A stretch of DNA of 33,424 bases from Candidatus Portnoybacteria bacterium (GCA_028717445.1 JAQUNU010000001.1:1-33424); one strand, 5' to 3'; counted from the first letter of the stretch, positions 7,647 to 31,147 are shown. Notes: generated by a model from the letters alone, not told the origin. A program made the numbers and translations.

Positions 7647-7931
7647 ATGCAATTTCACGTTCCTCAATTCCTCGATATTGAAGACAAAATTATCGGCCCT
7701 TTAACCCTTAAACAATTCGCCTACCTAGCCGGCGGGGGAGTCTTGCTTTTTATTCTGTCTAATTATGTAAAATTATGGCTTTTTTTGATAATCGCCGCGC
7801 CTTTGGCCGCGTTTTGCATGGCTCTGGCCTTTATCCGGGTCAACGGCCGACCATTTATTTCAATCTTTGGCGCTTTTGTAAATTACATGGTCAAGCCGAA
7901 GCTTTTTGTCTGGAAAAGAAAAGAAAAATGA
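7647..7931 (+). CDS. PrgI-family small membrane protein (VirB3-like T4SS component)
   Basis: 94 aa. The N-terminus VPQFLDIEDKIIGPLTLKQFAYLAGGG followed by two TM helices is the signature of the PrgI family (Pfam PF12666, recalled from memory). It lies directly upstream of the VirB4-like genes, as in Gram-positive T4SS loci. Confidence 0.7.
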   Translation: MQFHVPQFLDIEDKIIGPLTLKQFAYLAGGGVLLFILSNYVKLWLFLIIAAPLAAFCMALAFIRVNGRPFISIFGAFVNYMVKPKLFVWKRKEK

Positions 7932-7944
7932 GCTGTAAAAACAT

Positions 7945-8625
7945 ATGCCCGAACCACAATCAAACATTTTAAACAAAATACCAATCGCCGACATTCAGAA
8001 TGGAATCGTCTTCTTAAAAGACGGTTCGCTTCGGGGAGTTTTAATGGTTTCTTCCGTAAACTTTGCCCTGAAATCAACCGACGAACAGGACGCGCTGACC
8101 TTTCGCTATCAGCAATTTTTGAATTCCCTCGATTTTCCCATCCAAATCCTGATCATGACGCGGCGGTTTGATATCTCCGACTACATCGCCTTGATTGACC
8201 AAAAGAAAAAAGAACAGGAGAACGAACTGCTGCGGATCCAAACCGGTGAATATATTGATTTCATCAAAGGATTGACTCAAGTCGTCAATATTATGAGCAC
8301 TTTTTTTTATATCATCATCCCTTACGCCCAAAGCGAACCGGCCAAAGCGGCCATGGGCTTTGCGGACAAAATAACCAGAAAGATTTTCAGCCAGGAAACG
8401 AGTCAAAATCAAGAAAAACAATCCCTAGAACAAATGCAGACCGGGCTCTGGCAGCGCGTAAATTATATAATCTCCGGCTTGACCATGTGCAATTTGAAAA
8501 GCGCCATTTTAGACGACTTGGAATTAAAAGAGCTTTTTTACAAGCTTTACAATCCGCAATCAGAGCAAAGAGCCGAAACAGAATCTCCGTCAAGCAATCC
8601 AGGATTTAATTTCACCCAAAAATAA
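7945..8625 (+). CDS. Hypothetical protein; resembles a VirB4/TrsE N-terminal domain without an ATPase domain
   Basis: 226 aa. IADIQNGIVFLKDGSLRGVLMVSSVNFALKSTDEQDALTFRYQQFLNSLDFPIQILI resembles the start of VirB4-type proteins. There is no Walker motif. The stop lies 3 nt before the VirB4-like ATPase start. Confidence 0.5.
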   Translation: MPEPQSNILNKIPIADIQNGIVFLKDGSLRGVLMVSSVNFALKSTDEQDALTFRYQQFLNSLDFPIQILIMTRRFDISDYIALIDQKKKEQENELLRIQTGEYIDFIKGLTQVVNIMSTFFYIIIPYAQSEPAKAAMGFADKITRKIFSQETSQNQEKQSLEQMQTGLWQRVNYIISGLTMCNLKSAILDDLELKELFYKLYNPQSEQRAETESPSSNPGFNFTQK

Positions 8626-8628
8626 ATT

Positions 8629-10440
8629 ATGGATTTACCATTTTTTTCAAAACAAAAAAACAAAACAAAACAAACGCCCGAATCGAAGATTGCGGAAATA
8701 TTGGCGCCCTCAGCCATGAAAATAAACGCCAATTTCATCCAGCTCGGCGGCAAATTATGCCGGGTTCTTTTTGTTTTTACCTATCCAAGGAATCTCTCGA
8801 CTAATTGGTTCTCGCCGGTTCTCACCATGGATAAGGAGTTAAATATTTCGATGTTCATCAAGCCGGCCGAAACGCATCTCATCCTAAAACAATTAAGAAA
8901 AAAAGTCGCCCAGGTGCAATCACAGATTTCAGCCCAGCAGGAAAAAGGGAAAATCAGAGATCCCATCCTGCAAACCGCGCTTCAGGATATGGAAACGATG
9001 CGCGACACGCTCCAGCAGGGGACAGAAAGATTTTTTAATTTTGGTCTCTATATCGCCGCTTTCGGCAATTCGCCCCAGGAGCTTGACCAGATTGAGAATG
9101 AACTCCGGGCCGCGATGGAATCAAAATTAGTCTATGTCAAGCCCGCCACTTTCCAACAAGAAGCCGGCTTCACTTCAATTCTGCCGCTGGCCAAAGACGC
9201 TCTTTCGATTTCGACGCCGATGAACACGGCCCCGGTTTCCAGCACATTCCCTTTTGTCTCCTCGGATCTTTCTCAAAACAAAGGCATTCTTTATGGCATT
9301 AACCGACACAACAACAGCTTGATACTTTTTGACCGTTTTTCTTTGGAAAATGCCAATATGGTTATTTTCGCCAAGTCCGGCGCCGGAAAAAGCTATGCGG
9401 TCAAGCTTGAAATATTAAGATCGCTCATGATGGGATCGGACGTTATTGTGATCGATCCGGAAAACGAATATCAGTATCTTGCCGAAACAGTGGGCGGCTC
9501 ATATATAAAAATTTCGCTGACTTCGCCGCATCATATTAATCCTTTTGACCTGCCGATTCCCAGAAAAGATGAACGGCCAGGCGATATTTTACGCTCAAAC
9601 ATCATCAACCTGGTTGGCCTTATCCGAATAATGCTGGGCGGCTTGACCCCGCAGGAAGACGCTGTTTTGGATAAAGCCCTGACAGAAACTTATGCTTCGC
9701 GGGATATTACTCCTGAATCTGATTTTGCGAACATTACGCCGCCGCTCTTAAGCGATCTTAAAACCATCCTTGGCAACATGGAGGGCGGCCAATCCATGGC
9801 GCAGCGGCTCGAAAAATATACCAGCGGCTCATACGCCGGCTTCTTTAATCGGCCCACGAACGTGGCGGTCAAAAACCGATTGGTTGCTTTTTCCATCCGC
9901 GATATGGAAGAAGATCTCCGGCCGATGGCCATGTATGTTGTGCTCCATTATATCTGGAACCTGATCCGTTCGGAGATGAAAAAAAGAATTCTCGTCGTGG
10001 ACGAGGCCTGGGTCATGATGCGTTACGAAGATGCCGGTTCTTTTATGTTCGGCATTGCCAAAAGATGCCGTAAATATTTTCTTGGCCTAACCACGATCAC
10101 CCAAGATGTCGCCGACTTCATGGCCTCAACCTACGGCAAGCCAATCGTCACCAACTCCTCCATCCAGCTCCTGATGAAACAATCGCCAGCCACTATCGAA
10201 ATTATCCAAAACACCTTCAATCTGACCGACCAAGAAAAGTATCTTCTGCTGGAATGCAATGTCGGAGAAGGAATATTTTTTGCCGGCTTAAAGCACGTGG
10301 CCATCAAAGTTATCGCCTCCTACACCGAAGATCAGATTATCACCTCCGACCCGGCCCAGCTGCTTGAAATAGAAAAGGCTAAAGAAGAATTAACAGCGGA
10401 AGAAAACCAACCAACCGATAACAACTTGGACATTATTTAA
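8629..10440 (+). CDS. virB4: VirB4/TrsE/TraC-like type IV secretion ATPase
   Basis: 603 aa with Walker A FAKSGAGKSYAVK and Walker B RILVVDEAW. There is a downstream TTITQ sensor-like motif, and the N-terminal domain carries the YPRNLSTNWF motif typical of VirB4 homologs. Confidence 0.85.
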   Translation: MDLPFFSKQKNKTKQTPESKIAEILAPSAMKINANFIQLGGKLCRVLFVFTYPRNLSTNWFSPVLTMDKELNISMFIKPAETHLILKQLRKKVAQVQSQISAQQEKGKIRDPILQTALQDMETMRDTLQQGTERFFNFGLYIAAFGNSPQELDQIENELRAAMESKLVYVKPATFQQEAGFTSILPLAKDALSISTPMNTAPVSSTFPFVSSDLSQNKGILYGINRHNNSLILFDRFSLENANMVIFAKSGAGKSYAVKLEILRSLMMGSDVIVIDPENEYQYLAETVGGSYIKISLTSPHHINPFDLPIPRKDERPGDILRSNIINLVGLIRIMLGGLTPQEDAVLDKALTETYASRDITPESDFANITPPLLSDLKTILGNMEGGQSMAQRLEKYTSGSYAGFFNRPTNVAVKNRLVAFSIRDMEEDLRPMAMYVVLHYIWNLIRSEMKKRILVVDEAWVMMRYEDAGSFMFGIAKRCRKYFLGLTTITQDVADFMASTYGKPIVTNSSIQLLMKQSPATIEIIQNTFNLTDQEKYLLLECNVGEGIFFAGLKHVAIKVIASYTEDQIITSDPAQLLEIEKAKEELTAEENQPTDNNLDII

Positions 10441-10852: not shown

Positions 10853-11704
10853 TTGAAAATCACTAAATTTTTTTTCGCAAATATTTTGCCCGCTTTTTAT
10901 TTTCTCTCCTGCTCGACCGCATTTGCCCTGGAATATCCCTTCGGCAATCTGTCGGCCAATCCCACTCCCTGCGAATATATTAAAACGGCATACATTTGGG
11001 GTCTGGGGATTGTCGGCACTCTGGCGGTGGCCGTGATCGCTTTTGGCGGTTTTCTTTACATGGTGGGGAAAGTGGAGCAGGGCAAAGACTACATCACTTC
11101 GGCGTTTTTGGGAATACTGCTGCTTTTTGGCGCTTACCTGATTCTCTACACTATTAATCCGGAATTGGCACAGTTGAAGTGCGAGATAAAGAATATGCAA
11201 CCCTTGGGAACTCCGCCCACCGGCGCTTCGGTGCCAATAACACCTGGCTCAACCACCGGCACTTCGCTTGGAGAACAGGCGGCTCGGGGCGCTTTGGCCA
11301 GCGGCGTAGGCGTAAAAGACGCTTGTCCGCCTGGGCAGGCGACCGGATGCGTTAGAATGGAGGGGATGAAGGATACAACCGTTAACGAAATAAATGATTT
11401 AGCCGGCAAAGTTGGGCCTGAAAATATCTACATTTCAGGCGGCACCGAAGGGTGCGGCGCCACTGGCTCAACAATTCATTCAACCGGCTCAGTCAGCCAT
11501 TGTTCCGGCGATAAGTATGACATGAGACAGAATAACACCGTTAATAATTATATCGAAAACGCTTTTGTAAAAATGCCCAATCGAAAATACGATGGCGCCG
11601 AAATGTGGATGGACCCAAAAACCGGAACCACTTATGCCAAAGAAATGGGCGTTGTAGGAACGGTTAACGGACCACACTGGGACGTGGCTGTCCGGAAAAT
11701 TTAA
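10853..11704 (+). CDS. VirB2/TrbC-like 'T4SS pilin' N-terminal module fused to a putative LAS/M15-type zinc peptidase (cell-wall hydrolase) domain
   Basis: 283 aa with a TTG start. It has a signal-like N-terminus and then two TM helices (IWGLGIVGTLAVAVIAFGGFLYM and FLGILLLFGAYLILYTINP), as in the Patescibacteria T4SS pilin family. A Pro/Thr linker follows. The C-terminal domain carries SHCSGDKYD (H-x3-G-x3-D) and GPHWDVAVR (H-x-D) motifs. Confidence 0.6.
   Translation: MKITKFFFANILPAFYFLSCSTAFALEYPFGNLSANPTPCEYIKTAYIWGLGIVGTLAVAVIAFGGFLYMVGKVEQGKDYITSAFLGILLLFGAYLILYTINPELAQLKCEIKNMQPLGTPPTGASVPITPGSTTGTSLGEQAARGALASGVGVKDACPPGQATGCVRMEGMKDTTVNEINDLAGKVGPENIYISGGTEGCGATGSTIHSTGSVSHCSGDKYDMRQNNTVNNYIENAFVKMPNRKYDGAEMWMDPKTGTTYAKEMGVVGTVNGPHWDVAVRKI
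10923..11200 (+). repeat. Direct repeat copy A (278 bp, identical to 11797-12074)
   Basis: A base-by-base read of both copies shows identity. Both the sense and the antisense ORF translations are also identical across the repeat. Confidence 0.95.
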
Positions 11705-11735: not shown

Positions 11736-12194
11736 GTGAAAAAATATTTTAAAATAATTTTTTCTTTGATCGGCCTAACCTTTCCGATTTTCTCCCTTGC
11801 CCTGGAATATCCCTTCGGCAATCTGTCGGCCAATCCCACTCCCTGCGAATATATTAAAACGGCATACATTTGGGGTCTGGGGATTGTCGGCACTCTGGCG
11901 GTGGCCGTGATCGCTTTTGGCGGTTTTCTTTACATGGTGGGGAAAGTGGAGCAGGGCAAAGACTACATCACTTCGGCGTTTTTGGGAATACTGCTGCTTT
12001 TTGGCGCTTACCTGATTCTCTACACTATTAATCCGGAATTGGCACAGTTGAAGTGCGAGATAAAGAATATGCAAAAATTTAATGAAGCGCCGCAACCGAC
12101 AAAAACGACGGACGAACCGCTCCCGCAATCGATGACCGAAAAAATAGATGCCGGCGCAACCAACCAAGACATAAAAGACGACATGTTAAAATAA
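11736..12194 (+). CDS. VirB2/TrbC-like 'T4SS pilin' paralog with a short hydrophilic tail
   Basis: 152 aa with a GTG start. Residues ALEYPFGNL...AQLKCEIKNMQ are 100% identical to the preceding gene. The signal peptide and C-terminal tail are unrelated to it. Confidence 0.7.
   Translation: MKKYFKIIFSLIGLTFPIFSLALEYPFGNLSANPTPCEYIKTAYIWGLGIVGTLAVAVIAFGGFLYMVGKVEQGKDYITSAFLGILLLFGAYLILYTINPELAQLKCEIKNMQKFNEAPQPTKTTDEPLPQSMTEKIDAGATNQDIKDDMLK
11797..12074 (+). repeat. Direct repeat copy B (278 bp, identical to 10923-11200)
   Basis: Same as copy A; the offset between copies is 874 bp. Confidence 0.95.
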
Positions 12195-14544: not shown

Positions 14545-15895
14545 GATTTTTAACGTTCCTTGCCAAGGCTAGAATAATTAAAAAAAAGGAAATAATCACA
14601 GGATTAAAAACCGCCGATTCAAAAAGGGAGTGGGAAAAAAAATAAACAAGCGAACCAAAAAGACCGATTGCCAAAAAAGAGGAATGTTCGCTTTTTCGGC
14701 TCCTGATAAATTTCAGAAGCTGATAAAAGCTTCCCGCCAGGAGTAAAAACCAGGCAAAAAAACCCAGAATCCCGGTCTCAACTAAAAGATCAAGATAAAG
14801 ATTATGGCTGGTGATCGGGGTGCGGTAGGAAGCGAGCGGATCGGCATAGCGAGGATAATTGCCCAAACCTACGCCTAAAATCGGATTTGAAATGAAAACC
14901 TGCCAAGAATTTCGCCAAATCTCAAGACGAGAAATGGAAGAACCTTCCGATAAAAAGAAACTGGAAAAAAAGCGTTCAAGAACCGGCTGCGCCAGGGCAA
15001 TGATAAGAAAAAAAATCAATATTCCGGCCATTATTATTTTTACTTTCACTGGGCCGCTAAAAGATCGCCAGCCCAGAAAGATCATCGAAACAAAAGCCGC
15101 CACAATCCCTAAATAACCGCCCCGTGAAAAGGTTGCCAGCAGAACCAAAAAAATAAAACCAGCCAGAAAGAAAAGAAGAAGTTGATTTTTTTTTGATCCC
15201 ATGGCTCCGGCCACGACAAGCGGCAAAATCATTCCCAAAAAAAATGAAAGCATATGCGGATCAGGAAAAGAACCGAATGCCCGCATTATGTCTCCGCCGG
15301 CCAAAGCAACAAACCAGCTTGGATGCTGGCCAACCATGAGGGAAAAATTATTCCCCCATAAAAAAGGCCCGGCTTTTTGCAAATAAAAAGAAGATAAAAC
15401 CTCCGGACCAAACACGAATTGGGCTAAAAATTGCATCACTCCGGCTAAGGCCGCCAAAAAACCCAATCCAAAAATTATTTTAAGCACTTTCTGAAATCGA
15501 TTTTTATCCCTTAAAAAAGCCGAGGCAAAAAAGAATAAAGGAAAGACTGAGGCAAAAAAGAATAATTTCCTGATTCCCCATAGAAATTCCTGCGCTCCCA
15601 TTATAGAAAAAAGGGCAAAAATAAAAAACAACAACAAACCAAACCCCTGGAAAGAGAGCGTTTCTGAAACAAAAAAAGAGGGGAGAGACCACCTAAAAAA
15701 GAAGCCGCCGGCTAGCCAAAAAAGAAAAAAGACGGGAATCAGCACTCGTCCAGAAACCAGATCAATGTCACTGCTCAAATTCAAGGCAAATTGAAAAAAT
15801 AAAAGGAAAATTAAAACAAAAAAAGAAATATCAAAAAAATCCGGCTTCGTCTTTCGCCTGATGTTTAAGTCTCGCAGATAAGTTTCTGATTTCAT
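14528..15895 (-). CDS. O-antigen ligase/polymerase-like (Wzy_C family) polytopic membrane protein
   Basis: 455 aa, polytopic. The TFSRGGYLGI motif is characteristic of the O-antigen ligase domain. Confidence 0.65.
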   Translation of the reverse strand: MKSETYLRDLNIRRKTKPDFFDISFFVLIFLLFFQFALNLSSDIDLVSGRVLIPVFFLFWLAGGFFFRWSLPSFFVSETLSFQGFGLLLFFIFALFSIMGAQEFLWGIRKLFFFASVFPLFFFASAFLRDKNRFQKVLKIIFGLGFLAALAGVMQFLAQFVFGPEVLSSFYLQKAGPFLWGNNFSLMVGQHPSWFVALAGGDIMRAFGSFPDPHMLSFFLGMILPLVVAGAMGSKKNQLLLFFLAGFIFLVLLATFSRGGYLGIVAAFVSMIFLGWRSFSGPVKVKIIMAGILIFFLIIALAQPVLERFFSSFFLSEGSSISRLEIWRNSWQVFISNPILGVGLGNYPRYADPLASYRTPITSHNLYLDLLVETGILGFFAWFLLLAGSFYQLLKFIRSRKSEHSSFLAIGLFGSLVYFFSHSLFESAVFNPVIISFFLIILALARNVKNHEYSA

Positions 15896-21052: not shown

Positions 21053-22156
21053 ATGAAAATCATCTGCCTTCAGGAAAATTTAAAAACCAGTTTAAATATC
21101 GCGCAGAATGTCGTCAGCCGGAATTTAACCCTGCCAATTTTGAACAACGTCCTGCTTGAAACTGAGAACGGCCGGCTGAAAGTTTCCTCTACCAATCTTG
21201 AAATAGGGATCAACACCTGGACCTCCGGAAAAATCGAAAAAACCGGCGCGATAACCTGTCCGGCCAAAACCCTAACCACTTTTATCAACAGCCTGCCTAA
21301 TAAAAAGATCGAGCTGGAAGTAAAAGGCGACAACCTGTCGATCAAATGCGAAACTTTTAAGGCCAGCATCAAGGGTTTACCCGCGGACGACTTTCCTTTA
21401 ATCCCTAAACTAAAAGAAAGGCCGATCTTTTCATTTAAAAACAACGAAATTTTTAAAAACGATCTGGCCCAAGTTATTGGCGCGGCGGCTGCTTCCGAAT
21501 CCCGGCCGGAGATATCGGGCATCTTTTTTAGTCTGGATAAAGAAGCGGTCAAAATAGTAGGCACGGACGGTTTCCGCCTGGCCGAGAAAACCATTCGGCA
21601 AAATAACGGGCCGGCCAGCCCTCTTTCCTTTATTGTTCCCCAGCGGACGATCCAGGAGTTGATTAGGATCTTAAGCGAAAAGGGAGGCCAGGAAATGAAT
21701 ATGGTTTTGGGCAGCAGCCAGATCCTGTTCGATATGGGCGACGTTCAGCTGATTTCCCGCTTAATAGACGGCCAATACCCGGATTACCAGCAGATTATCC
21801 CCAAGGGATTTGAGACCAAGGCCACGGTTTTAAAAGATGAATTTACCAATAACGTCCGGATCGCCAGCATCTTCTCAAGCAAGGTCAACGATATCCAGCT
21901 TACGCTCAAAGACAGCAAGATTGAATTTTCCGCGCAGGACGCGGATCTGGGAGAAAATAAATCCCAATTAGAAGCGCAGATCCAGGGCAAGGGCGTGCAG
22001 ATGAGTTTTAATTTCCGTTATTTGTTGGACGGTCTTTCAAATATCCCAACCAAGCAGGTTTTTGTCGGCCTGAACGCCGAAAACAGCCCGGCCATCTTAA
22101 AACCGGTGGGGGATGACAGTTTTTTGTATGTGATTATGCCGATAAAAACGGCGTAG
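21053..22156 (+). CDS. dnaN: DNA polymerase III beta sliding clamp DnaN
   Basis: 367 aa with a typical N-terminus (MKIICLQENLKTSLNIAQNVVS..LPILNNVLLE), an RLIDGQYPDY motif and a C-terminal YVIMPI. Confidence 0.95.
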   Translation: MKIICLQENLKTSLNIAQNVVSRNLTLPILNNVLLETENGRLKVSSTNLEIGINTWTSGKIEKTGAITCPAKTLTTFINSLPNKKIELEVKGDNLSIKCETFKASIKGLPADDFPLIPKLKERPIFSFKNNEIFKNDLAQVIGAAAASESRPEISGIFFSLDKEAVKIVGTDGFRLAEKTIRQNNGPASPLSFIVPQRTIQELIRILSEKGGQEMNMVLGSSQILFDMGDVQLISRLIDGQYPDYQQIIPKGFETKATVLKDEFTNNVRIASIFSSKVNDIQLTLKDSKIEFSAQDADLGENKSQLEAQIQGKGVQMSFNFRYLLDGLSNIPTKQVFVGLNAENSPAILKPVGDDSFLYVIMPIKTA

Positions 22157-22166
22157 AATTCTTTTA

Positions 22167-22301
22167 TGTTACTTTTCTGCTGTCAGAAAAGTAACATAAA
22201 GACTGCTTTGCCGGGCATAAAATTTTAAGAAAGATCGGATTCACTCCGCTCATCTCGATTTTCTGATAAAATTTTTGCCAGGCAAGATTGAAGAAAAGGC
22301 C
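22167..22301 (+). repeat. Intergenic repeat element, copy 1 (inverted partner at 27503-27637)
   Basis: About 135 nt and about 94% identical to the reverse complement of 27503-27637. It starts with a 15-bp hairpin (22165-22198) 9 nt after the dnaN stop. It contains an extended -10 (tgataaaat, 22264-22272) and the palindrome ttgccaggcaa (22275-22285). Confidence 0.9.
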
Positions 22302-22350
22302 AGATGCAGATATAGGATTTTTGAAACAAAAAAAGATAGACGTTTTTTCT

Positions 22351-22647
22351 ATGGCATGGACGGCTCTCAAAAGAATGTTGCCGGAAACGGTCCAAAAGTT
22401 GAATCTCGGGCCGGTTTTGGAATTTAATCAGTTGACAATCTGCTGGGACGGCATTTTAGCCGAAGAACTGGGCGAGCCATTCAGGAAAGTTTCAAAACCC
22501 ATCTCGCTTAAAAACAAAATTTTACTAGTGGACTGCTTAAACTCCACCTGGGCGCAAGAACTCCAATTCAAATGTGAGCCTATCAAAGAACGAGCCAACA
22601 AGCTGCTTCAAAAAGAAACAATCTGCCAGATTAGATTTATCAGCTAA
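22351..22647 (+). CDS. DUF721 / DciA-like protein (putative replicative helicase loader family)
   Basis: The tracked ORF is 22288..22647 (TTG start inside the repeat element). I prefer the ATG at 22351. ICWDGILAEELGEPFRKVSKPISLKNKILLVDCLNSTWAQELQF fits the DUF721 pattern, and the position after dnaN is typical. Confidence 0.7.
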   Translation: MAWTALKRMLPETVQKLNLGPVLEFNQLTICWDGILAEELGEPFRKVSKPISLKNKILLVDCLNSTWAQELQFKCEPIKERANKLLQKETICQIRFIS

Positions 22648-22653
22648 AAAAGA

Positions 22654-22674
22654 ACGGCCGAAAGGCTGTTTTTT
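22654..22674 (+). terminator. Rho-independent terminator after the DUF721 gene (also readable on the minus strand)
   Basis: acggcc-gaaa-ggctgt forms a stem with a GNRA loop, followed by tttttt. Confidence 0.6.
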
Positions 22675-22676
22675 CG

Positions 22677-23010
22677 AAACACTCAAAGGGATGGTCTGGT
22701 GAAGGAGATGGAAATGGCAAGAGCGAAACGGAGTTTGTTGGATCGGTTGTTCGAGAAAATGGGCGTGACGGATTCGACCGAATGGTCGAAGAAATGTGCC
22801 GCGCTATTGCGAGAATGAATCGGTGTGTGTCGGTCCTAATTGCGCGGCCAAAGATGCGCTGCTGACCGTGGGCGCCAAGCTCGCGGAAAGGCCCGATTCG
22901 GCGGGGAAGATCGCCTTCTTTTCATATTTCCAGGTCGTCAAGGAAGTGGCCGAATCATGAGCGGCCACGGGTTATTGCGGGGCCGGTTCGTAAGAGCCGG
23001 CCTTCTTTTT
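22677..23010 (+). other. GC-rich island with no convincing ORF; possible structured RNA or decayed foreign gene(s)
   Basis: It is visibly more GC-rich than its flanks. All three plus frames hold only 27-60-aa ORFs and the minus strand is closed. Local hairpins lie at 22773-22790 and 22945-22968. A strong terminator closes the region at 22981-23010. Confidence 0.3.
22981..23010 (+). terminator. Rho-independent terminator
   Basis: ggccgg(t)-loop-(g)ccggcc forms a GC stem immediately followed by ttcttttt. Confidence 0.6.
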
Positions 23011-23168
23011 GTCCTTAGACAGGGGACAATTATGGAAAAAGGGGATAAATATGTTGAGAACGAGGACGATGAAGCGGTGTATGAAAATATTTCTTCGTCC
23101 TCAAATCCGCAGGTTACTCACAGACGAAGAAATAAAGGTATTCTTCTTAAAGGGTGGATAAGAGAGGG

Positions 23169-23196
23169 TTGATGACGATAGTGAAATTGTTATAAT
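23169..23196 (+). promoter_or_regulatory. Candidate promoter TTGATG-16-TATAAT for the 23266 ORF
   Basis: ttgatg lies at 23169-23174 and tataat at 23191-23196. The downstream leader carries two hairpins (23223-23239 and 23241-23258), and the second includes the GGGAG Shine-Dalgarno. Confidence 0.5.
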
Positions 23197-23265
23197 AATA
23201 AAGGTCATAGTAAAAATCCCTCCCCGCCGAAGCGGCGGGACTCCCTTTAAAAAGGGAGAATAAAA

Positions 23266-23805
23266 ATGGATATTAAACTACAGGAAGCGTTTAAAAAAGC
23301 CCAGGCCGAAATCGAGTCGGCTGGGATCGCTGATCTGGAATTAAAAAAGATCGCTTTTGCCAAAGCGATTGATTATTTTCTAAAAAAGGAAGGAAGTTTG
23401 TTTCCGGCAAAGGAAAAGAGCGGCCTGGATTTTTGGCCTGCGCTTTCCAATTCCACCGGCTTTGAGGAAAGAAAGCTGAAAGATATTTACGCGGTTGACG
23501 GCGATCAGATCCGGCTGGTGATCGATAAAGAAAAAATTCCGGGCGAGCGCAAAAGCGAGAAACAGCGAAGCCTGGCCGCACTGGTTTTACTGGCTTATCA
23601 CAACGGCCTGGGTCAGGAATGGGTGGCCTCAAGCGTTCTGGCCGAAGCGGCCAAGCATTCCAAGCTCTATGACACGAGTAAGTATTCCAAAAATTTAAAA
23701 CACGAATGGTTTCGAGCGCAGGGGGTGCGCAAGGGTTTGGCCTGGCGGCTTTCGGCTTCGGGCCTCTCTCAGGTCAGATTTATTTTGCTGGCCATTGCCA
23801 AGTGA
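23266..23805 (+). CDS. Hypothetical protein (179 aa), no family recognised
   Basis: A clean ORF with an AGGGAG SD 7 nt upstream, its own promoter and a downstream terminator. It is predicted to be mostly helical. Confidence 0.6.
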   Translation: MDIKLQEAFKKAQAEIESAGIADLELKKIAFAKAIDYFLKKEGSLFPAKEKSGLDFWPALSNSTGFEERKLKDIYAVDGDQIRLVIDKEKIPGERKSEKQRSLAALVLLAYHNGLGQEWVASSVLAEAAKHSKLYDTSKYSKNLKHEWFRAQGVRKGLAWRLSASGLSQVRFILLAIAK

Positions 23806-23833
23806 AGCATGGTTAAAATTTTAAAAATCAAAA

Positions 23834-23863
23834 AACCGCCCTATAGCGAGGGTGGTTTTGTTT
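23834..23863. terminator. Bidirectional terminator between convergent genes
   Basis: aaccgccc-tatagcga-gggtggtt forms a hairpin flanked by an A-run upstream and a T-run downstream. It sits between the 23266 ORF (+) and the PBP gene (-). Confidence 0.6.
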
Positions 23864-23896
23864 GGTCAGACGAATTTAATTTATTACCCCATCGCG

Positions 23897-26515
23897 TTAT
23901 TCGATTTGAATTTCTGGCGAATTGATGAGCACGTCAATTAAAGCCTCTTTGCGGTTACAAAAACTATCATAAGCCACGGCTTTGATGGTGTGCATGCTGC
24001 CGTTAAGGCGGGAGGGGAGGCGGAAGGAAACCGAAGAGGGGTCTTTCGTATCGGCGCCGATGAGTTCATCGTCAAAAAAGAAATCAACCTGCTTTATGCC
24101 AAGATTTGAAACGGCTGAAGCGGAAACCTGTATCCTTCTTTGGGTGATGACCTGGTTTTGCAAGGGGGAGTTGATAGTTATTGAAGGTATATTTTCCTGG
24201 GTGTGGACATCGTCGGAGCTGTCGGGCTGCTGTTGGGGGACCCAACCGGAAGAAACAGCCCAGGCCCGGATCGGCGCTTCCCAATTGTTGAATTGCGGAT
24301 CAGCCGTCGGATCTTTTGGCGCGTCTCCGAGCGGATTGTCTTTATCGATGTAGAAAAGAATTGTATGGACTTCCGGATAAACTTTTTCTTCGATTAAATC
24401 CGGCGGAGTCATATCAGTGGCCAGCTTGCCGGAAATCTTGTCTATTTTGACTATTCTTTCAAAAACATAACTACCATTCAAGATTGATTTGGCGGCAGGG
24501 GTGGAATCCGGCTTGGTAAAGGCCTCGGGCTCGCTGGGCAGTATAAAACTATTTTCAGGCGCGTCTTGGCGGCTGGAAGCAATCTGATAAGCCTTTTTCA
24601 TAAAAGCGTTCCAAAGCGGCGCGGCGGCATACATGCCAGCCCCGGCTTTGGCCATGGGCGTGTTGTCGTTGTTGCCGGCCCAGACGCCAACCGCCAAAGA
24701 AGGAGTGTAGCCGATGGTCCAGGCGTCGCGATATTCTTGGGTGGTTCCGGTTTTGACCGCTGCCGGCCTCTCGGTTAAATAAAGGGGGGAGTTTGCGCCG
24801 AAAACCGGCGAGCGCGCTTCATTGTCAGACAGGATGTCCGTGACCATTCTTGATATTTGCGGATCGATAATTTTTGTCGGGTTTGACTCGTATTCTTCTA
24901 AGATTTTTCCTTTGCCGTCTTCTATTTTTAAGATGGCGGCCGTTTTGTTTTTTATGCCATCAGCCGCGAAAACACCAAAGGCGGCCGTTTCATCAAGGAG
25001 TTTGACTTCGCCGCCTCCCAGAACCAATGCCAGGCCGTAGCGGCTGCGGTCGTTCAGGGTGGTGATGCCCATAGATTTGGCGGTTTCAATGGTTTGATTA
25101 ATGCCGGCCAGATACAAAGTTTTGACCGAGGGAACGTTGAGCGATTGGGCCAGGGCTTCGCGCATGCTAACAGGCCCTCTGAATTTGCCATCGTAGTTGT
25201 CGGGGTTATAGCAGCGTTGACCCTCAAATTCTTGGGCCGTGGCCGAAGCCGGGCAGGCAGGGGCAAATTCAGTTTTTAAATCAAAGAGCATGGTTTCGGG
25301 AGTGAATCCTTTTTTAAAAGCGGTGGCGAAAGCGAATGGCTTGAAAGAAGAACCCGGTTGGCGGTCACGGATTGAAACATTGACGTAGGGCTCGTATCGG
25401 CAAGTATCGCCCGGAGTACAGCCGGTCGGAAGGGAGTCGGCTGTGTCATCGCGGGAACCGGCCATGGCCAAAATTTGGCCGGTCTTCGGGTCAACGGCAG
25501 TTAAGGCGGCGTTGTAGGCGCCATATTTTTTTTGATTGTCAGCTGCTCCTTGATTGATTATTTCTTGGGCTGCTTCTTGGAGTTCGATATCAAGCGTGGT
25601 GTAAACTTTAAGGCCGCCTTTTTCAACTGTTTCCTGGCCATATTTTTCTTCCAGATATTCTTTAATATACATAACAAAATGCGACGCCTTGATGGATTGG
25701 GCGGTTTTTGAAAAATTAAGCTGTTCTTTTTTGGCGGCCTCCGCTTCTTCGGCGCTGATATATCCCAGCTTTGCCATTCGGTCTAAAACATACTCCTGCC
25801 GGCTTTTAAGCTCTTCGGGATGGGAGCCAAACGGGGAATAATAGCTGGGGGCCTGGGGCAATGAAGCCAGAAGCGCGCCCTCGGCCAAATTCAGATCTTT
25901 GGCTGATTTATTGAAAAAAGTCTGGGCGGCCGCTTCAGCGCCATAGGCATTAGATCCATAAGGAATTTGATTCAAATAAAAACCAAGAATTTCATCTTTG
26001 GAATATTTAGCTTCGAGCTCAAGCGACAATATCCACTCTTTGACTTTTCTCGTATAAGACCTTTTGTCCGAGAAAAATGATTTTTTGATAAATTGTTGAG
26101 TGATGGTTGAGCCGCCTCCGGCTGAACGATTTCCCGTCAGGACGCCGATAATCGCCCGCCCGATACCCTTGAAATCAAGGCCGAAGTGATTATAAAAATT
26201 CGCGTCCTCCACTGAAATCGTCGCGTTTTTCAGATTTGGTGAAATTTGATCGAGCGCGACAATAGTCCTTTTTTCTTCGCCATGCACATCATAAAGAAGC
26301 ACTGTTCCGGTGCGATCGTAAATTTTAGTTGATTGGGTTATTTGTCGATGAGAAATTGTGCTCGGATCCGGCAGATCCTTGGCAAAATATGCAAAAGCGG
26401 CCGTGGCAACCAAAAGGCCGGCAAAAACAAAATATCCCGAGAGCTTCAGGATTCTTTTTAAACAAGCCTTTCTTTTTTTAATCGCGTTGTAATAAGGGCG
26501 ATAGTATTTCATCAA
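23897..26515 (-). CDS. Class A penicillin-binding protein (PBP1A-type glycosyltransferase + transpeptidase) with a C-terminal Ig-like extension
   Basis: 872 aa with an N-terminal TM helix. GT51 motifs are present (EDANFYNHFG, GGSTITQQ, RKVKEW), as are transpeptidase motifs SSFKP (SxxK), SLN (SxN) and KTGTT. An extra ~100-aa beta-rich C-terminal domain follows. Confidence 0.93.
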   Translation of the reverse strand: MMKYYRPYYNAIKKRKACLKRILKLSGYFVFAGLLVATAAFAYFAKDLPDPSTISHRQITQSTKIYDRTGTVLLYDVHGEEKRTIVALDQISPNLKNATISVEDANFYNHFGLDFKGIGRAIIGVLTGNRSAGGGSTITQQFIKKSFFSDKRSYTRKVKEWILSLELEAKYSKDEILGFYLNQIPYGSNAYGAEAAAQTFFNKSAKDLNLAEGALLASLPQAPSYYSPFGSHPEELKSRQEYVLDRMAKLGYISAEEAEAAKKEQLNFSKTAQSIKASHFVMYIKEYLEEKYGQETVEKGGLKVYTTLDIELQEAAQEIINQGAADNQKKYGAYNAALTAVDPKTGQILAMAGSRDDTADSLPTGCTPGDTCRYEPYVNVSIRDRQPGSSFKPFAFATAFKKGFTPETMLFDLKTEFAPACPASATAQEFEGQRCYNPDNYDGKFRGPVSMREALAQSLNVPSVKTLYLAGINQTIETAKSMGITTLNDRSRYGLALVLGGGEVKLLDETAAFGVFAADGIKNKTAAILKIEDGKGKILEEYESNPTKIIDPQISRMVTDILSDNEARSPVFGANSPLYLTERPAAVKTGTTQEYRDAWTIGYTPSLAVGVWAGNNDNTPMAKAGAGMYAAAPLWNAFMKKAYQIASSRQDAPENSFILPSEPEAFTKPDSTPAAKSILNGSYVFERIVKIDKISGKLATDMTPPDLIEEKVYPEVHTILFYIDKDNPLGDAPKDPTADPQFNNWEAPIRAWAVSSGWVPQQQPDSSDDVHTQENIPSITINSPLQNQVITQRRIQVSASAVSNLGIKQVDFFFDDELIGADTKDPSSVSFRLPSRLNGSMHTIKAVAYDSFCNRKEALIDVLINSPEIQIE

Positions 26516-26637
26516 TTCTTATTTTGACAAATATTCTAATATTTTTCAAGTTTAAAGAGAGATTATTGAGAGAGAATGAAAAAGATGGGACGGGGAGAAG
26601 GCGGGCGTCAATATTCTATTTCTATTCCGTTCGTTCT

Positions 26638-26684
26638 CTATCTAAATAAAACAACCCTTAAAAAGGGTTGTTTTATTTAGATAG
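26638..26684. terminator. 22-bp perfect hairpin (bidirectional terminator-like)
   Basis: ctatctaaataaaacaaccctt-aaa-aagggttgttttatttagatag. It lies 15 nt downstream of the acidic small ORF on the minus strand. Confidence 0.6.
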
Positions 26685-26698
26685 TTTAATCAGAAAAA

Positions 26699-26866
26699 TT
26701 AAATTTCTTCTTCTCCGGCAGCTTCTTCCTTGGGTTCGTCATCGCTTCCGGTTTCGTCGCCGTCTAAAGCCGCTGGCGCGTCTCCGCCTTCTACGTCCGT
26801 TTCTTCTTCTGACTCTTCGTCTAGAAGTTCTTCGTTATCAAGGTTTAAAAAGAGTTTCGCAGTCAT
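26699..26866 (-). CDS. Candidate 55-aa hyper-acidic small protein
   Basis: The hand translation gives MTAKLFLNLDNEELLDEESEEETDVEGGDAPAALDGDETGSDDEPKEEAAGEEEI. It is bracketed by a consensus promoter (26934-26962) and the 26638-26684 hairpin. There is no clear SD. The tracked plus-strand ORF 26668..26868 (R/L-rich) looks like its antisense artefact. Confidence 0.4.
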   Translation of the reverse strand: MTAKLFLNLDNEELLDEESEEETDVEGGDAPAALDGDETGSDDEPKEEAAGEEEI

Positions 26867-26933
26867 AAAATAAAATTTTAATTTTATTTCTCGCCTCGAC
26901 CTTTACCTTATAATTTATCTTTTTTGTGAAGTC

Positions 26934-26962
26934 ATTTTATTAATTTATTTTTGGCTTGTCAA
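26934..26962 (-). promoter_or_regulatory. Consensus-like promoter TTGACA-17-TAAAAT (minus strand)
   Basis: The minus strand reads ggggattgacaagcc-...-ataaaatg. It closely resembles the promoter at 30902-30930 (ggggttgacaagct-...-ataaaatg). Confidence 0.55.
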
Positions 26963-26990
26963 TCCCCAGACCCAAATTCGTAAAAATGGC

Positions 26991-27473
26991 TTATTTGGGC
27001 AGGGTCATTCGGCAATGCCCGGCGCAGATAGCGATTGCCAGAGCGTCGGCGGCGTCATCCGGTTTGGGAATTTCTTTTAGATTCAGAATGGCTTTGACCA
27101 TCTTTTGAACCTGTTGTTTTTCAGCTTTGCCGTATCCAGTGACCGCCTGTTTGACCTGCGGTGGAGTGAACTCCACGATCGGCAATTTTTCCAGGGCGGC
27201 GGCCAGCATCACGATTCCTTGCGCCTGGCTGACTTTAATGATGGTTTTTTGGTTCTTAAAAAAGAAGAGCGACTCCATGGCGATCGTCTCGGGTTTGTAT
27301 TTTTTGATGAGGGCAGAGAGCTCTTTAAAAATTTTTTCAAGGCGCAGGGCGGGCTTTAAATTTTTTTCGGTGGCAAAACAGCCATACTCAATGAACTTTA
27401 TTTTGCCGCCGAGGTCTTCGATGAGCCCGTAGCCCATGAGCGCGTTGCCGGGGTCAATGCCTAGTATTATCAT
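26991..27473 (-). CDS. ruvC: Crossover junction endodeoxyribonuclease RuvC
   Basis: 160 aa with IILGIDPGNALMGYG (catalytic Asp) and a C-terminal DAADALAIAICH-type motif. Confidence 0.92.
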   Translation of the reverse strand: MIILGIDPGNALMGYGLIEDLGGKIKFIEYGCFATEKNLKPALRLEKIFKELSALIKKYKPETIAMESLFFFKNQKTIIKVSQAQGIVMLAAALEKLPIVEFTPPQVKQAVTGYGKAEKQQVQKMVKAILNLKEIPKPDDAADALAIAICAGHCRMTLPK

Positions 27474-27502
27474 AAATTTTCAGACGAAAGATTTTCGGAA
27501 AA

Positions 27503-27637
27503 GGCTTTTTCTTCAATCTTGCCTGGCAAAAATTTTATCAGAAAATCGAGATGAGCGGAGTGAATCCGATCTTTCTTAAAATTTTATACCCGGCAAAGCA
27601 GTCTTTATGTTGCTTTTCTGCTGTCAGAAAACTAACA
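27503..27637 (-). repeat. Intergenic repeat element, copy 2 (inverted partner of 22167-22301)
   Basis: It is the reverse complement of copy 1 with about 8 substitutions, 4 of them in the hairpin loop. It lies between the yebC stop and the ruvC start, in the same orientation relative to local transcription as copy 1. The extended -10 is at 27532-27540 on the minus strand. Confidence 0.9.
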
Positions 27638-27646
27638 AGAGAACTT

Positions 27647-28375
27647 TTATTTCAAATTGGAATATATCTCGCTGACGTCGTCATTTTCTTCCAGCGCGTC
27701 CATCAGTCGCTCAATCTGGCCATGGGTTTTTTCGTCGACTATTTCGATCTGGTTTTTGGGCTTCCATTCAAGAGAAAAAGAACTGATTTTTAATCCGTTC
27801 CGTTCGAGTTTGTTTTTTACCTCGTCTAGTTTTTCCGGGGCTGTATAAATTTCAAGTGAATTTTCGTCTTGCCAATTCAGGTCCTCGGCGCCGCAGTCAA
27901 TCGTTGAAAGCTCAATATCGTCCTTTTTTGTTTGGGCTTCAATCAAATTCACGACCAGAGCGCCTTTTCTTTCAAAGAGCCAGTTGACGCTTCCTGGTTC
28001 GGCTATTTTGCCGCCTTTCTCGTTGACCAAAAATCTGACTTCTGAAAGCGTCCGGTTTTTATTGTCGCTGATCGCCTCAATCAATAGAGCGATGCCGCCG
28101 GGGCCGTAGGCTTCGATCAGTATTTCTTCCATCTTCGCGCCTTCAAGCTCGCCAGTGCCCTTTTTTATGGCCCGTTCGATATTTTCTCCAGGCATGTTTA
28201 GGGATTTGGCCTTTTCCACGATGATGCGCAACTGGGAATTAGTCGCCTGGGCGCCGCCTTTTTGACGGGCGGCGACGGTGATAAGGCGCGAAAGCTTGCT
28301 GAAAATTTTCCCTCGTTTTACATCGGTAATCGCTTTTTTATGTTTGATTTGACTCCATTTTGAATGTCCAGACAT
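27647..28375 (-). CDS. yebC: YebC/PmpR-family transcriptional regulator
   Basis: MSGHSKWSQIKHKKA... is the family-defining N-terminus. The tracked ORF extends 10 codons further upstream (28405), but the ATG at 28375 is preferred. Confidence 0.9.
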   Translation of the reverse strand: MSGHSKWSQIKHKKAITDVKRGKIFSKLSRLITVAARQKGGAQATNSQLRIIVEKAKSLNMPGENIERAIKKGTGELEGAKMEEILIEAYGPGGIALLIEAISDNKNRTLSEVRFLVNEKGGKIAEPGSVNWLFERKGALVVNLIEAQTKKDDIELSTIDCGAEDLNWQDENSLEIYTAPEKLDEVKNKLERNGLKISSFSLEWKPKNQIEIVDEKTHGQIERLMDALEENDDVSEIYSNLK

Positions 28376-28473
28376 GAGAAGCTTATAGCTTATAGCAAAT
28401 GGCAAATAGGCAGAACGTTTCGGTCTTCCTAGTCGCTAATGCTAACGGCGAATTTCCAATTTTCACTCTAAGA

Positions 28474-30936: not shown

Positions 30937-31145
30937 TTCTTTCAGTTTTTTAAGCGTATTTTAAAAGATAGCGGTTTTTAACCTGTAGGCGGTCAAGGTC
31001 CTTATTTAAGCGGGGACTTATCGGGATTTTTCTTAGGCTCTAAAGGACGATTTGGTTTCGGCTGGATCGCTCCTCGGAAAAATTTTTACCCTCACGTTTA
31101 ACGCGAGGAGACTGCCTACAGATTAAAAGCCGCTATTTTATTTTG
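30937..31145 (+). ncRNA. Candidate ~200-nt structured small RNA (class unknown; 6S-like architecture possible)
   Basis: 30968-30994 pairs with 31110-31136 over 27 bp (24 Watson-Crick pairs, 2 G-U pairs, 1 C-A mismatch on the plus strand), enclosing 115 nt. A U-tract follows (attttattttg). The consensus promoter lies just upstream. The strand call is tentative. Confidence 0.4.
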
Positions 31146-31147
31146 TA

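What the first reader, a model, noticed from the sequence alone, without database searches (positions are those of the whole stretch)
22167..27637. ~135-bp inverted-repeat element carrying a hairpin, an extended -10 and a palindrome, placed upstream of both the DciA-like gene and ruvC
22167-22301 and the reverse complement of 27503-27637 match at about 127 of 135 positions; 4 of the differences are the flipped hairpin loop. Both copies are intergenic, and both have the same polarity relative to local transcription.

In each copy the order is: upstream gene stop (dnaN or yebC), then a 13-15-bp hairpin, then about 65 nt, then TGATAAAAT (extended -10). Next comes the palindrome TTGCCAGGCAA at the predicted start site, then the downstream gene (DUF721 or ruvC).

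The substitutions are non-synonymous in the short ORFs the track finds across the element (22164..22370 minus, 27551..27793 plus). It is therefore not a conserved peptide.

Three readings are possible:
- a MITE-like mobile promoter/terminator cassette;
- a shared operator that co-regulates a replication gene and a recombination/repair gene, like an SOS-type box;
- substrates for inversion of the intervening 5.2 kb.
Basis: seen in the sequence. Interest (0 to 1): 0.65.

Follow-up and report, generated by a model that had tools for sequence, protein, structure and literature searches.

The report
Two-hairpin mobile repeat in Portnoybacteria operons
The two inverted 135-bp copies are real. They belong to a small, non-coding, hairpin-forming repeat family that has been inserted between neighbouring genes of core operons in several Portnoybacteria (CPR) genomes: an ordinary kind of element, but one I found no report of for this group.

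Summary
In detail: 22167-22301 and the reverse complement of 27503-27637 match at 127/135 positions. Independent SRA assemblies break inside the repeat.

The "extended -10" and the "TTGCCAGGCAA palindrome" are the 3' arm of a roughly 80-nt imperfect hairpin (HP2). HP2 follows the 13-bp hairpin (HP1).

The window is a whole contig of a Candidatus Portnoybacteria genome. Its nearest relative has no element at either site: dnaN and dciA lie 5 nt apart, and yebC and ruvC overlap by 4 nt. That relative carries homologous two-hairpin elements at recJ|rnhA and secY|adk. Another relative has one, antisense, at ruvB|orf.

One site shows a 201-nt insertion flanked by a duplicated ATGA, compared with an empty overlapping junction. 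Across the copies, 13 of 42 stem pairs show compensatory changes. The TTGCCAGGCAA sequence itself is not conserved.

There is no Rfam match, no coding capacity, and no transposase in the sequence I held.

Best reading: a MITE/Correia-like dispersed structured repeat. Any promoter or RNA-processing effect is inferred, not shown. The shared-operator reading is not supported. Inversion cannot be tested, but the window's gene order is the ancestral one.

The parts
22157..22305 (+). Copy A of the element (full covariance-model match), in the dnaN|dciA spacer
   Evidence: cmsearch: 180 bits with R1, 175 bits with R2. Repeat core 22167-22301.
22167..22196 (+). HP1 of copy A: perfect 13-bp stem TGTTACTTTTCTG / CAGAAAAGTAACA with loop CTGT. 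The loop is inverted relative to all other family members. The stem can extend to about 18 bp using 22162-22201.
22197..22206 (+). Conserved unpaired linker TAAAGACTGC (AAA-R-ACTGC in all intact members)
   Evidence: Alignments
22207..22286 (+). HP2 of copy A: long imperfect hairpin. The 5' arm is 22207-22238, the 3' arm 22255-22286, with about 29 pairs. Each arm contains AAAATTTT, which is invariant in every intact copy (the 5'-arm AAAATTTT has partly decayed in the old copy in L030).
   Evidence: Folds; pair counts
22264..22272 (+). TGATAAAAT, an extended -10-like motif inside the 3' arm of HP2. Only the nAAAAT part is conserved in the family. No -35 is present.
22275..22285 (.). TTGCCAGGCAA: the base of the HP2 3' arm, which pairs with TTGCCGGGCAT at 22208-22218. 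Not conserved as sequence in the family.
27499..27647 (-). Copy B of the element, in the yebC|ruvC spacer
   Evidence: cmsearch: 175 bits with R1, 172 bits with R2
27608..27637 (-). HP1 of copy B: loop ACAG (the family-typical form). Two adjacent stem pairs are broken (A.C and G.G).
27518..27597 (-). HP2 of copy B: identical to copy A except C->T at 27588, which gives a G.U pair
21053..22156 (+). dnaN, the gene upstream of copy A
   Evidence: Pfam
22351..22647 (+). dciA (DUF721), the gene downstream of copy A; true start is ATG 22351
   Evidence: Pfam; 97-aa orthologues
26991..27473 (-). ruvC, the gene downstream of copy B
   Evidence: Pfam
27647..28405 (-). yebC, the gene upstream of copy B
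   Evidence: Pfam

Best explanation
The two arms are two copies of a non-coding, non-autonomous dispersed repeat of about 150-210 bp that is specific to Candidatus Portnoybacteria. Its layout is: a short T-rich lead, HP1 (12-13-bp stem with a 4-nt loop), the linker AAA-R-ACTGC, HP2 (a roughly 30-bp imperfect stem whose interior ranges from 15 to about 105 nt), and a short A-rich tail.

Copies have been inserted into the tight junctions between co-transcribed genes. The likely agent is a trans-acting enzyme not yet identified. The event duplicates a few bases of target, seen as ATGA at one site.

The two window copies lie in opposite chromosomal orientation only because their host operons do. 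They come from a relatively recent copying event within this genome: HP2 plus the linker differ at 1 of about 90 positions. The window version is a deletion derivative that lacks most of the HP2 interior.

Shown: membership of a family, insertion versus empty sites, maintenance of the hairpins by compensatory change, lack of coding capacity, and decay of an old copy.

Inferred: the mode of mobilisation, and that the folded strand (ssDNA or RNA) is what is recognised. It is also inferred that the element is transcribed through as part of the operon mRNA, where HP1 and HP2 could act as 3' stabilisers or RNase III targets. The conserved nAAAAT in the outer arm may add an outward promoter, as in Neisseria Correia elements.
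For: 1. Empty sites. In the closest genome (GCA_016208745.1; DnaN 71% identical, third codon positions 35% identical) the dnaN-dciA spacer is 5 nt and yebC/ruvC overlap by 4 nt.

2. Homologous elements elsewhere. That genome has copies at recJ|rnhA (149-220 bits) and secY|adk (143 bits). JGI Ga0129287_10000061 has one at ruvB|67-aa gene (80-202 bits). ERZ25039515 has a degraded one at secY|adk (47 bits).

3. Those junctions are empty in relatives. recJ/rnhA overlap by 4 nt in L030. ruvB and the small gene overlap or abut in L014, L018 and L019.

4. At recJ|rnhA the 201-nt insertion (L028 9800-10000) is flanked by ATGA on both sides. The left ATGA carries the recJ stop and the right one the rnhA start. 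The empty site has a single overlapping ATGA.

5. Structure is kept while sequence changes. 95% of cells are paired and 13 of 42 pairs show double changes. None of 500 shuffles reaches these values, and the slid controls give 4 or fewer (with four sequences).

6. The element is about 90% identical between the window and GCA_016208745.1 at non-orthologous sites, although synonymous sites are saturated.

7. The orthologous old copy in L030 has lost the 5' arm of HP1, which indicates weak constraint at that locus.

8. There is no conserved ORF, no Rfam family, and no match in phage or plasmid collections.

9. Other Portnoybacteria carry unrelated long palindromes at the very same junctions, so these junctions repeatedly accept such insertions.
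Against: - No transposase or other mobilising gene was seen in about 250 kb of loci (and the gene tables).
- Whole-genome copy number is unknown. Only 2 copies in 33 kb and 2 in about 41 kb were seen.
- The long inverted repeat (HP2) is not terminal, because HP1 and the linker lie outside it on one side only. The element therefore does not have a classical MITE layout.
- A target duplication is clear at only one site and could reflect selection for intact stop and start codons.
- The covariation alignment was fitted to the model and has few, related sequences.
- Four of five independent insertions are sense to the operon, and all start 1-12 nt after the upstream stop codon. That pattern could point to a host function rather than a selfish element.
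Confidence: 0.65

Rival explanations
1. A host-beneficial intercistronic module. HP1, placed directly after the upstream stop codon, acts as a 3' stabiliser or U-tract-less terminator. HP2 acts as an RNase III processing site and/or carries an outward promoter (nAAAAT in the outer arm). The element thereby uncouples expression of the two neighbouring genes and is retained for that reason. This overlaps with the best explanation; the difference is whether function or selfish spread explains its persistence.
For: - In all sense copies HP1 begins 1-12 nt after the upstream stop codon, while the distance to the downstream ATG varies from 8 to 64 nt.
- AAAATTTT is invariant in both arms of every intact copy even where neighbouring pairs covary.
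- G.U pairs outnumber A.C mismatches 9 to 3 on the element's forward strand.
- In L028 the downstream ATG lies only 8-10 nt from the base of HP2, so translation would be easier from a transcript that starts inside the 3' arm.
- Correia elements are documented to create promoters and to be bound or cut by RNase III (PMC2649163 abstract).
Against: - There is no -35, and the site is not picked up by the promoter scan. Neither hairpin is followed by a T-run.
- One member is antisense to its operon.
- The nearest relative manages with 5-nt or overlapping junctions at the same genes.
- The old copy in L030 has lost half of HP1.
- The HP2 interior is dispensable: about 15 nt in the window against about 105 nt in L028.
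Confidence: 0.2
2. A shared operator. A regulator binds the TTGCCAGGCAA palindrome (or HP1) and co-regulates replication and repair genes, like an SOS box.
For: Four of five independent sites flank genome-maintenance genes: dnaN/dciA, yebC/ruvC, recJ/rnhA and ruvB.
Against: - Three of those four sites came from loci fetched around dnaN, so the sample is biased. The fifth site is secY|adk.
- The palindrome is not conserved in the family, and its changes are matched by changes in the opposite arm.
- No copy of TTGCCNGGCAA occurs in L014, L018 or L019, including upstream of dciA and ruvC.
- The nearest relative has no spacer at all at those genes.
Confidence: 0.03
3. The pair serves as substrates for inversion of the 5.2-kb segment between them, either programmed or by RecA.
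For: The 135-bp inverted arms share an 81-nt identical core, which is long enough for homologous recombination. Inversion would swap dciA and ruvC behind identical elements, so it would be largely neutral for expression.
Against: - Order and orientation (dnaN+ dciA+ PBP1- ruvC- yebC-) are identical in six relatives that lack the repeat, so the window shows the ancestral state.
- There is no invertase or recombinase in the window.
- Other family members occur singly.
- The Logan contigs carry the copy-A variants with dnaN and the copy-B variant with ruvC.
Confidence: 0.05

Closest known systems
Correia repeat-enclosed elements (CREE/NEMIS) of Neisseria
   Same: Both are roughly 100-150-bp non-coding dispersed elements dominated by a long inverted repeat. 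Both insert next to or between genes and are transcribed with them. Correia elements are documented to create outward promoters and to be bound or cut by RNase III (PMC2649163). A -10-like motif sits in the outer arm here too.
   Different: There is no sequence similarity. The element here is asymmetric, with an extra conserved hairpin and linker outside the long inverted repeat. No TA duplication is seen; ATGA is seen once. Density appears to be far lower. The host is a CPR bacterium.
Chunjie MITE of Geobacter uraniireducens
   Same: A small element (178-235 bp) inserted inside an operon without destroying the operon structure, with size-variant copies elsewhere in intergenic DNA (described in PMC10969869).
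   Different: Chunjie has conserved terminal inverted repeats and direct repeats. Here, terminal inverted repeats are not evident.
ERIC/IRU, REP/BIME, RUP/BOX/SPRITE and Rickettsia palindromic elements
   Same: Short structured intergenic repeats that form hairpins in mRNA and influence stability or termination (my own knowledge; review PMC2229807).
   Different: There is no GTAG-REP unit, no modular BOX structure and no in-frame insertion. Sequence and architecture are unrelated.
IS200/IS605-derived palindrome-associated elements (PATEs)
   Same: Non-coding, hairpins near both ends, no long terminal inverted repeats. Recognition of a folded single strand would explain covariation in both hairpins.
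   Different: HP1 and HP2 are unlike each other. A 4-bp duplication is seen at one site, whereas IS200/IS605 elements make none. The two window copies have opposite orientation although, if oriC lies next to dnaA, they sit on the same replichore. No Y1 transposase was seen.

Membership tests
MITE (generic prokaryotic) | Small, non-coding | tested here: met
   The element is 149-220 nt. No ORF is conserved between copies: ATG 22165 opens a 20-codon frame in copy A only, and copy B and L006 hit stops within 5-6 codons.
MITE (generic prokaryotic) | Several dispersed copies per genome, with presence/absence polymorphism between relatives | tested here: met
   Two copies in the window. Two copies in GCA_016208745.1 (recJ|rnhA and secY|adk). 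Single copies in two further genomes. Empty orthologous sites in relatives. The genome-wide copy number could not be measured.
MITE (generic prokaryotic) | Terminal inverted repeats | tested here: inconclusive
   The 30-bp inverted repeat (the HP2 arms) is not terminal, because conserved HP1 and linker lie outside it on one side. Only a weak T-rich/A-rich complementarity exists at the outer ends.
MITE (generic prokaryotic) | Target-site duplication | tested here: inconclusive
   ATGA flanks the 201-nt insertion at recJ|rnhA, against a single ATGA at the empty site. A possible TAAA occurs at secY|adk. Nothing clear is seen at the two window copies.
MITE (generic prokaryotic) | Cognate autonomous IS with the same ends | not testable with these tools
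   No transposase occurs in about 250 kb of held loci.
REP/BIME with RAYT | A 20-40-nt imperfect palindrome preceded by a conserved GTAG tetranucleotide | tested here: not met
   No GTAG is present. The unit is 150-210 nt with two dissimilar hairpins.
Correia/NEMIS | 26-bp terminal inverted repeats, TA duplication, Neisseria-specific sequence | tested here: not met
   Layout and sequence are different, and no TA duplication is seen.
IS200/IS605-type PATE | Similar subterminal hairpins at both ends, no target duplication, strand-specific insertion | tested here: inconclusive
   HP1 and HP2 are dissimilar. An ATGA duplication is seen at one site. Copies A and B have opposite orientation although, if oriC lies next to dnaA, they sit on the same replichore.
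Operator of a LexA/SOS-type regulon | Palindrome conserved upstream of orthologous target genes | tested here: not met
   and the empty junctions.
Intrinsic terminator | GC-rich hairpin followed by a T-run | tested here: not met
   Neither HP1 nor HP2 is listed by the terminator scan. The tails read CATAAAGAC and ATTGAAGAAAA.
Sigma-70 promoter | -35 and -10 hexamers at 16-18-bp spacing (or TGn plus -10) | tested here: inconclusive
   TGATAAAAT is present, but without a -35 it is not listed by the scan. TG is absent in L028, and only nAAAAT is conserved.
Any Rfam RNA family | Covariance-model match at the gathering score | tested here: not met
   Searches found nothing. In E-value mode only generic hairpin (miRNA precursor) hits appear, far below their thresholds.

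The most novel reading that the evidence does not exclude
The element may be a mobile module that specifically targets stop/start junctions of translationally coupled genes (ATGA or TAATG overlaps) and rebuilds both codons by target duplication. This would be a 'safe-haven' strategy that lets a repeat spread inside essential operons of a highly streamlined CPR genome. It might do so via a folded single strand recognised by an unknown enzyme, and might preferentially sit at genome-maintenance operons.
Probability: 0.12. Interest if true: 0.7.

Novelty: new member of a known kind. Interest (0 to 1): 0.35.

Why it matters
CPR/Patescibacteria genomes are small and gene-dense, and my literature searches found no report of small repeat elements in them. 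This family shows that structured repeats can colonise even overlapping gene junctions in core operons (dnaN-dciA, yebC-ruvC, recJ-rnhA, secY-adk, ruvB) without destroying those operons.

There are three practical points:
- The repeat explains why short-read assemblies break at these junctions.
- It warns against reading the -10-like motif and the palindrome as an operator.
- It provides a covariance model (R2) that could be used to census the family and look for its mobilising enzyme.

Tried and rejected
- **Genome scan.** An exact 20-mer scan of GTDB representative genomes gave 3 hits. Only one was real (L006, Portnoybacteria); the Flavobacterium and Syntrophaceae hits were chance matches.
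- **Metagenome scan.** The JGI metagenome scan gave 7 hits, all chance matches inside unrelated sequence.
- **Viral contig scans.** Three scans gave nothing or a chance match.
- **Phage and plasmid collections.** blastn found no match.
- **Rfam.** Nothing at the gathering score, and nothing meaningful at a permissive E-value.
- **Conserved peptide.** None.
- **Mobilising gene.** Pfam, NCBIfam and PHROGs were run on the window ORFs, including the two lineage-specific ORFs between the copies. No transposase or recombinase was found.
- **Free-standing operator.** A search for TTGCCNGGCAA in relatives found none.
- **Other classes considered from memory and rejected on layout.** These were integron attC (no R'/R'' GTTRRRY boxes), a dif/Xer site (wrong spacing), a retron ncRNA (no RT, several unrelated contexts), 6S RNA (the interior is dispensable) and a riboswitch (the interior is deleted in the window).
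- **Target duplications at the two window copies.** No consistent direct repeat was found.
- **Literature.** Searches for CPR/Patescibacteria MITE or REP reports found nothing relevant.
Full report
**1. Observation**

The inverted repeat is real and far beyond chance. Arms 22167-22301 and 27503-27637 are 135 nt and 94% complementary. The next-longest inverted pair in the window is 37 nt at 70%. A direct count gives 127/135. The differences are the inverted 4-nt loop of the first hairpin, two stem positions of that hairpin, C/T at 22216 and G/A at 22298.

Contigs assembled independently from two SRA runs (SRR22315506, SRR22315508) carry dnaN->element and element->ruvC. They stop inside the identical core, as de Bruijn assemblies do at true repeats.

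- dnaN 21053-22156 (+)
- a DciA/DUF721 gene
- ruvC 26991-27473 (-)
- yebC 27647-28405 (-)

The DciA gene starts at ATG 22351, giving 98 aa. Orthologues are all 97 aa and start MW.... The element is therefore wholly intergenic.

**2. Anatomy**

HP1 is 22167-22196, with a perfect 13-bp stem in copy A. After HP1 and a 10-nt linker (TAAAGACTGC), the stretch 22207-22238 pairs with 22255-22286. This gives an imperfect hairpin of about 29 bp, HP2.

The "extended -10" TGATAAAAT and the "palindrome" TTGCCAGGCAA are simply the 3' arm of HP2. Their partners on the 5' arm are ATAAAATTTTA and TTGCCGGGCAT.

The promoter scan does not list the site because no -35 is present. Neither hairpin has a T-run. No tRNA and no Rfam family matches. 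In E-value mode only generic miRNA-hairpin hits appear, far below threshold.

**3. Organism and relatives**

The window is a whole 33,424-nt contig of a Candidatus Portnoybacteria (CPR/Patescibacteria) genome. The best DnaN relatives are 60-71% identical, and those that carry a name are called Portnoybacteria, Parcubacteria or Patescibacteria.

Gene order around dnaA-dnaN-dciA-PBP1-ruvC-yebC-LTD-ruvB is conserved in six relatives.

In the closest genome (GCA_016208745.1) the dnaN-dciA spacer is 5 nt and yebC/ruvC overlap by 4 nt. Both window copies therefore sit where a relative has no room for them. This is the signature of insertion.

**4. The family**

An exact-word scan of representative genomes found one true relative, again GCA_016208745.1. 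It lies between recJ and an RNase HI gene. It has the same HP1, the same linker and the same HP2 arms, but about 90 extra nucleotides inside HP2. Its fold z-score is -9.

A covariance model built from these copies found further members:
- in JGI contig Ga0129287_10000061, between the ruvB stop and a 67-aa gene, antisense to both;
- in GCA_016208745.1, between secY and adk (143 bits);
- at the same secY|adk junction of ERZ25039515, a degraded copy (47 bits) that has lost the 5' arm of HP1.

The corresponding junctions are empty in relatives. recJ/rnhA overlap by 4 nt in L030. ruvB and the small gene overlap or abut in L014, L018 and L019.

At recJ|rnhA the inserted 201 nt (L028 9800-10000) are bracketed by ATGA on each side. 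The left ATGA supplies the recJ stop and the right one the rnhA start. The empty site has one shared ATGA.

No further copies were found in about 250 kb of Portnoybacteria loci. The family therefore has low to moderate density, roughly one copy per 20 kb in carrier loci. This estimate is biased by how the loci were chosen.

**5. What is conserved**

On the model-guided alignment of the six copies plus one spurious reverse HP1 hit:
- 95% of cells pair;
- 13 of 42 pairs show changes on both sides (4 in HP1, 9 in HP2);
- none of 500 shuffles reaches this, and sliding the partners gives at most 4 (four-sequence version).

The TTGCCAGGCAA sequence is one of the parts that changes. It becomes CAGATGCAAG in L023 and GCCATGCAAG in the L028 secY copy, and the opposite arm follows.

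The parts that do not vary are AAAATTTT in both HP2 arms (in the intact copies; the 5'-arm copy has partly decayed in L030), TTTT/AAAA in HP1, and the linker AAA-R-ACTGC.

The element is about 90% identical between the window and GCA_016208745.1 at non-orthologous sites. Third codon positions of dnaN are only 35% identical. The copies therefore share a much more recent common source than the genomes do, or their source copies are tightly constrained.

G.U pairs (9) outnumber A.C mismatches (3) on the forward strand. This is a weak hint that the forward strand is the one that folds.

**6. Interpretation**

The best-supported reading is a non-autonomous, structured dispersed repeat of the MITE/Correia/ERIC kind. 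It spreads within and perhaps between Portnoybacteria genomes and survives in tight intra-operon junctions.

The window version is an internally deleted derivative that has been copied once within the genome. Within the window pair, copy B has the derived substitutions, two of which break HP1 pairs. Copy A has the derived, flipped loop. The outgroup states come from L028 and L023. Loop flips between perfect stem arms are a known mutational behaviour of hairpins (my own knowledge).

How the element moves is not shown. No transposase was seen. Its layout is asymmetric, not terminal-inverted-repeat-bounded. Covariation in both hairpins would be most simply explained by recognition of a folded strand.

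What it does to the host is also inferred. With no T-runs it is probably read through as part of the operon mRNA, where HP2 would be a plausible RNase III substrate and HP1 a 3' protector. The conserved nAAAAT could serve as an outward -10, as documented for Correia elements (PMC2649163).

Other Portnoybacteria carry unrelated long palindromes at exactly these junctions. Occupation of operon junctions by hairpin elements is therefore a general habit of the group.

**7.

The MITE-like cassette is supported for mobility and not shown for promoter/terminator activity.

The shared operator is not supported.

Inversion is untestable here, and the window has the ancestral arrangement.

The apparent link to genome-maintenance genes (4 of 5 sites) is largely a sampling effect. 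Three sites came from dnaN-centred loci, and the unbiased locus gave one repair junction and one secY|adk junction.

**8. A more interesting residue**

Every site with a known empty state is a junction of 5 nt or less, or an overlap, in at least one relative. These are tiny targets compared with the 1.6 kb of ordinary spacer in a 21-kb locus (my count from the gene table).

In sense copies HP1 always begins 1-12 nt after the stop codon. This could reflect selection alone, or real targeting of stop/start junctions. I rate targeting at about 0.12.

**9. Novelty**

Literature searches found no description of MITE- or REP-like repeats in CPR/Patescibacteria, and a 2024 MITE review does not mention them.

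The kind of element is well known, while this family and its host group appear to be new. I score it as a new member of a known kind, with interest 0.35.

Noticed in passing
window 30955-31147 (minus strand), between the pilB-like ATPase gene and ruvB; also L018 20497-20669 and L023 19621-19780: A candidate structured RNA of about 175 nt. It has a 30-nt closing inverted repeat (30965-30994 / 31110-31139), MFE -61.5 kcal/mol and z -6.5. It is conserved at the same position in two relatives, with compensatory changes in the closing stem and an invariant core (TTTTCCGAGGAGC...GTCC...CTAAGAAAA.CCCC). There is no Rfam match even at E<=1. It may be an undescribed CPR ncRNA or a divergent 6S-like RNA.
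   Followed up: partly
window 10923-11200 and 11797-12074: A perfect 278-nt direct repeat with 874-nt spacing. ORF 11736-12194 is a partial duplicate of the 283-aa ORF 10853-11704. The relative L027 has a single 272-aa gene there. This is either a very recent tandem duplication or an assembly artefact.
   Followed up: no
window 22650-23896: About 1.2 kb between dciA and the convergent PBP1 gene that all sampled relatives lack. It contains ORF 23266-23805 (179 aa) with no Pfam, NCBIfam or PHROG hit, a GC-richer stretch whose 110-aa ORF looks non-coding, and terminator-like hairpins at 22979-23004 (+) and 23222-23240 (-). No Rfam hit.
   Followed up: partly
window 26638-26684: A perfect 22-bp palindrome with a 3-nt spacer, CTATCTAAATAAAACAACCCTT/AAGGGTTGTTTTATTTAGATAG. 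It lies in the spacer between the PBP1 start and the ruvC end (I15).
   Followed up: no
L018 11121-11211; L019 yebC-ruvC spacer (15126-15372); L028 2758-2863 and 4604-4737; L022 2152-2274: A second, unrelated family of long palindromes with AT-rich arms of the TAATTAGAAATTAGAA type, often around a GC-rich inner hairpin. It occupies operon junctions in several Portnoybacteria, including the same dnaN|dciA and yebC|ruvC junctions.
   Followed up: partly
L027 11683-11721: A solitary perfect 15-bp hairpin, GTACCATTTTCTTGC-TATA-GCAAGAAAATGGTAC, that resembles HP1. It sits at a convergent gene junction with T- and A-rich flanks. HP1-like hairpins may also exist on their own, possibly as terminators.
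   Followed up: no
window 7647-10440: PrgI-family and VirB4/TraG-like P-loop ATPase genes, which are type IV secretion-like, lie next to several large ORFs with no Pfam hit. The arrangement is conserved in relative L027.
   Followed up: no
window 22167-22196 vs 27608-27637: Divergence between the two window copies is concentrated in HP1: 6 of the 8 differences lie in 30 nt, including a whole-loop flip and two adjacent broken pairs. HP2 plus the linker differ at only 1 of about 90 positions. This suggests either a mutational hot spot at the perfect palindrome or gene conversion limited to HP2.
   Followed up: partly
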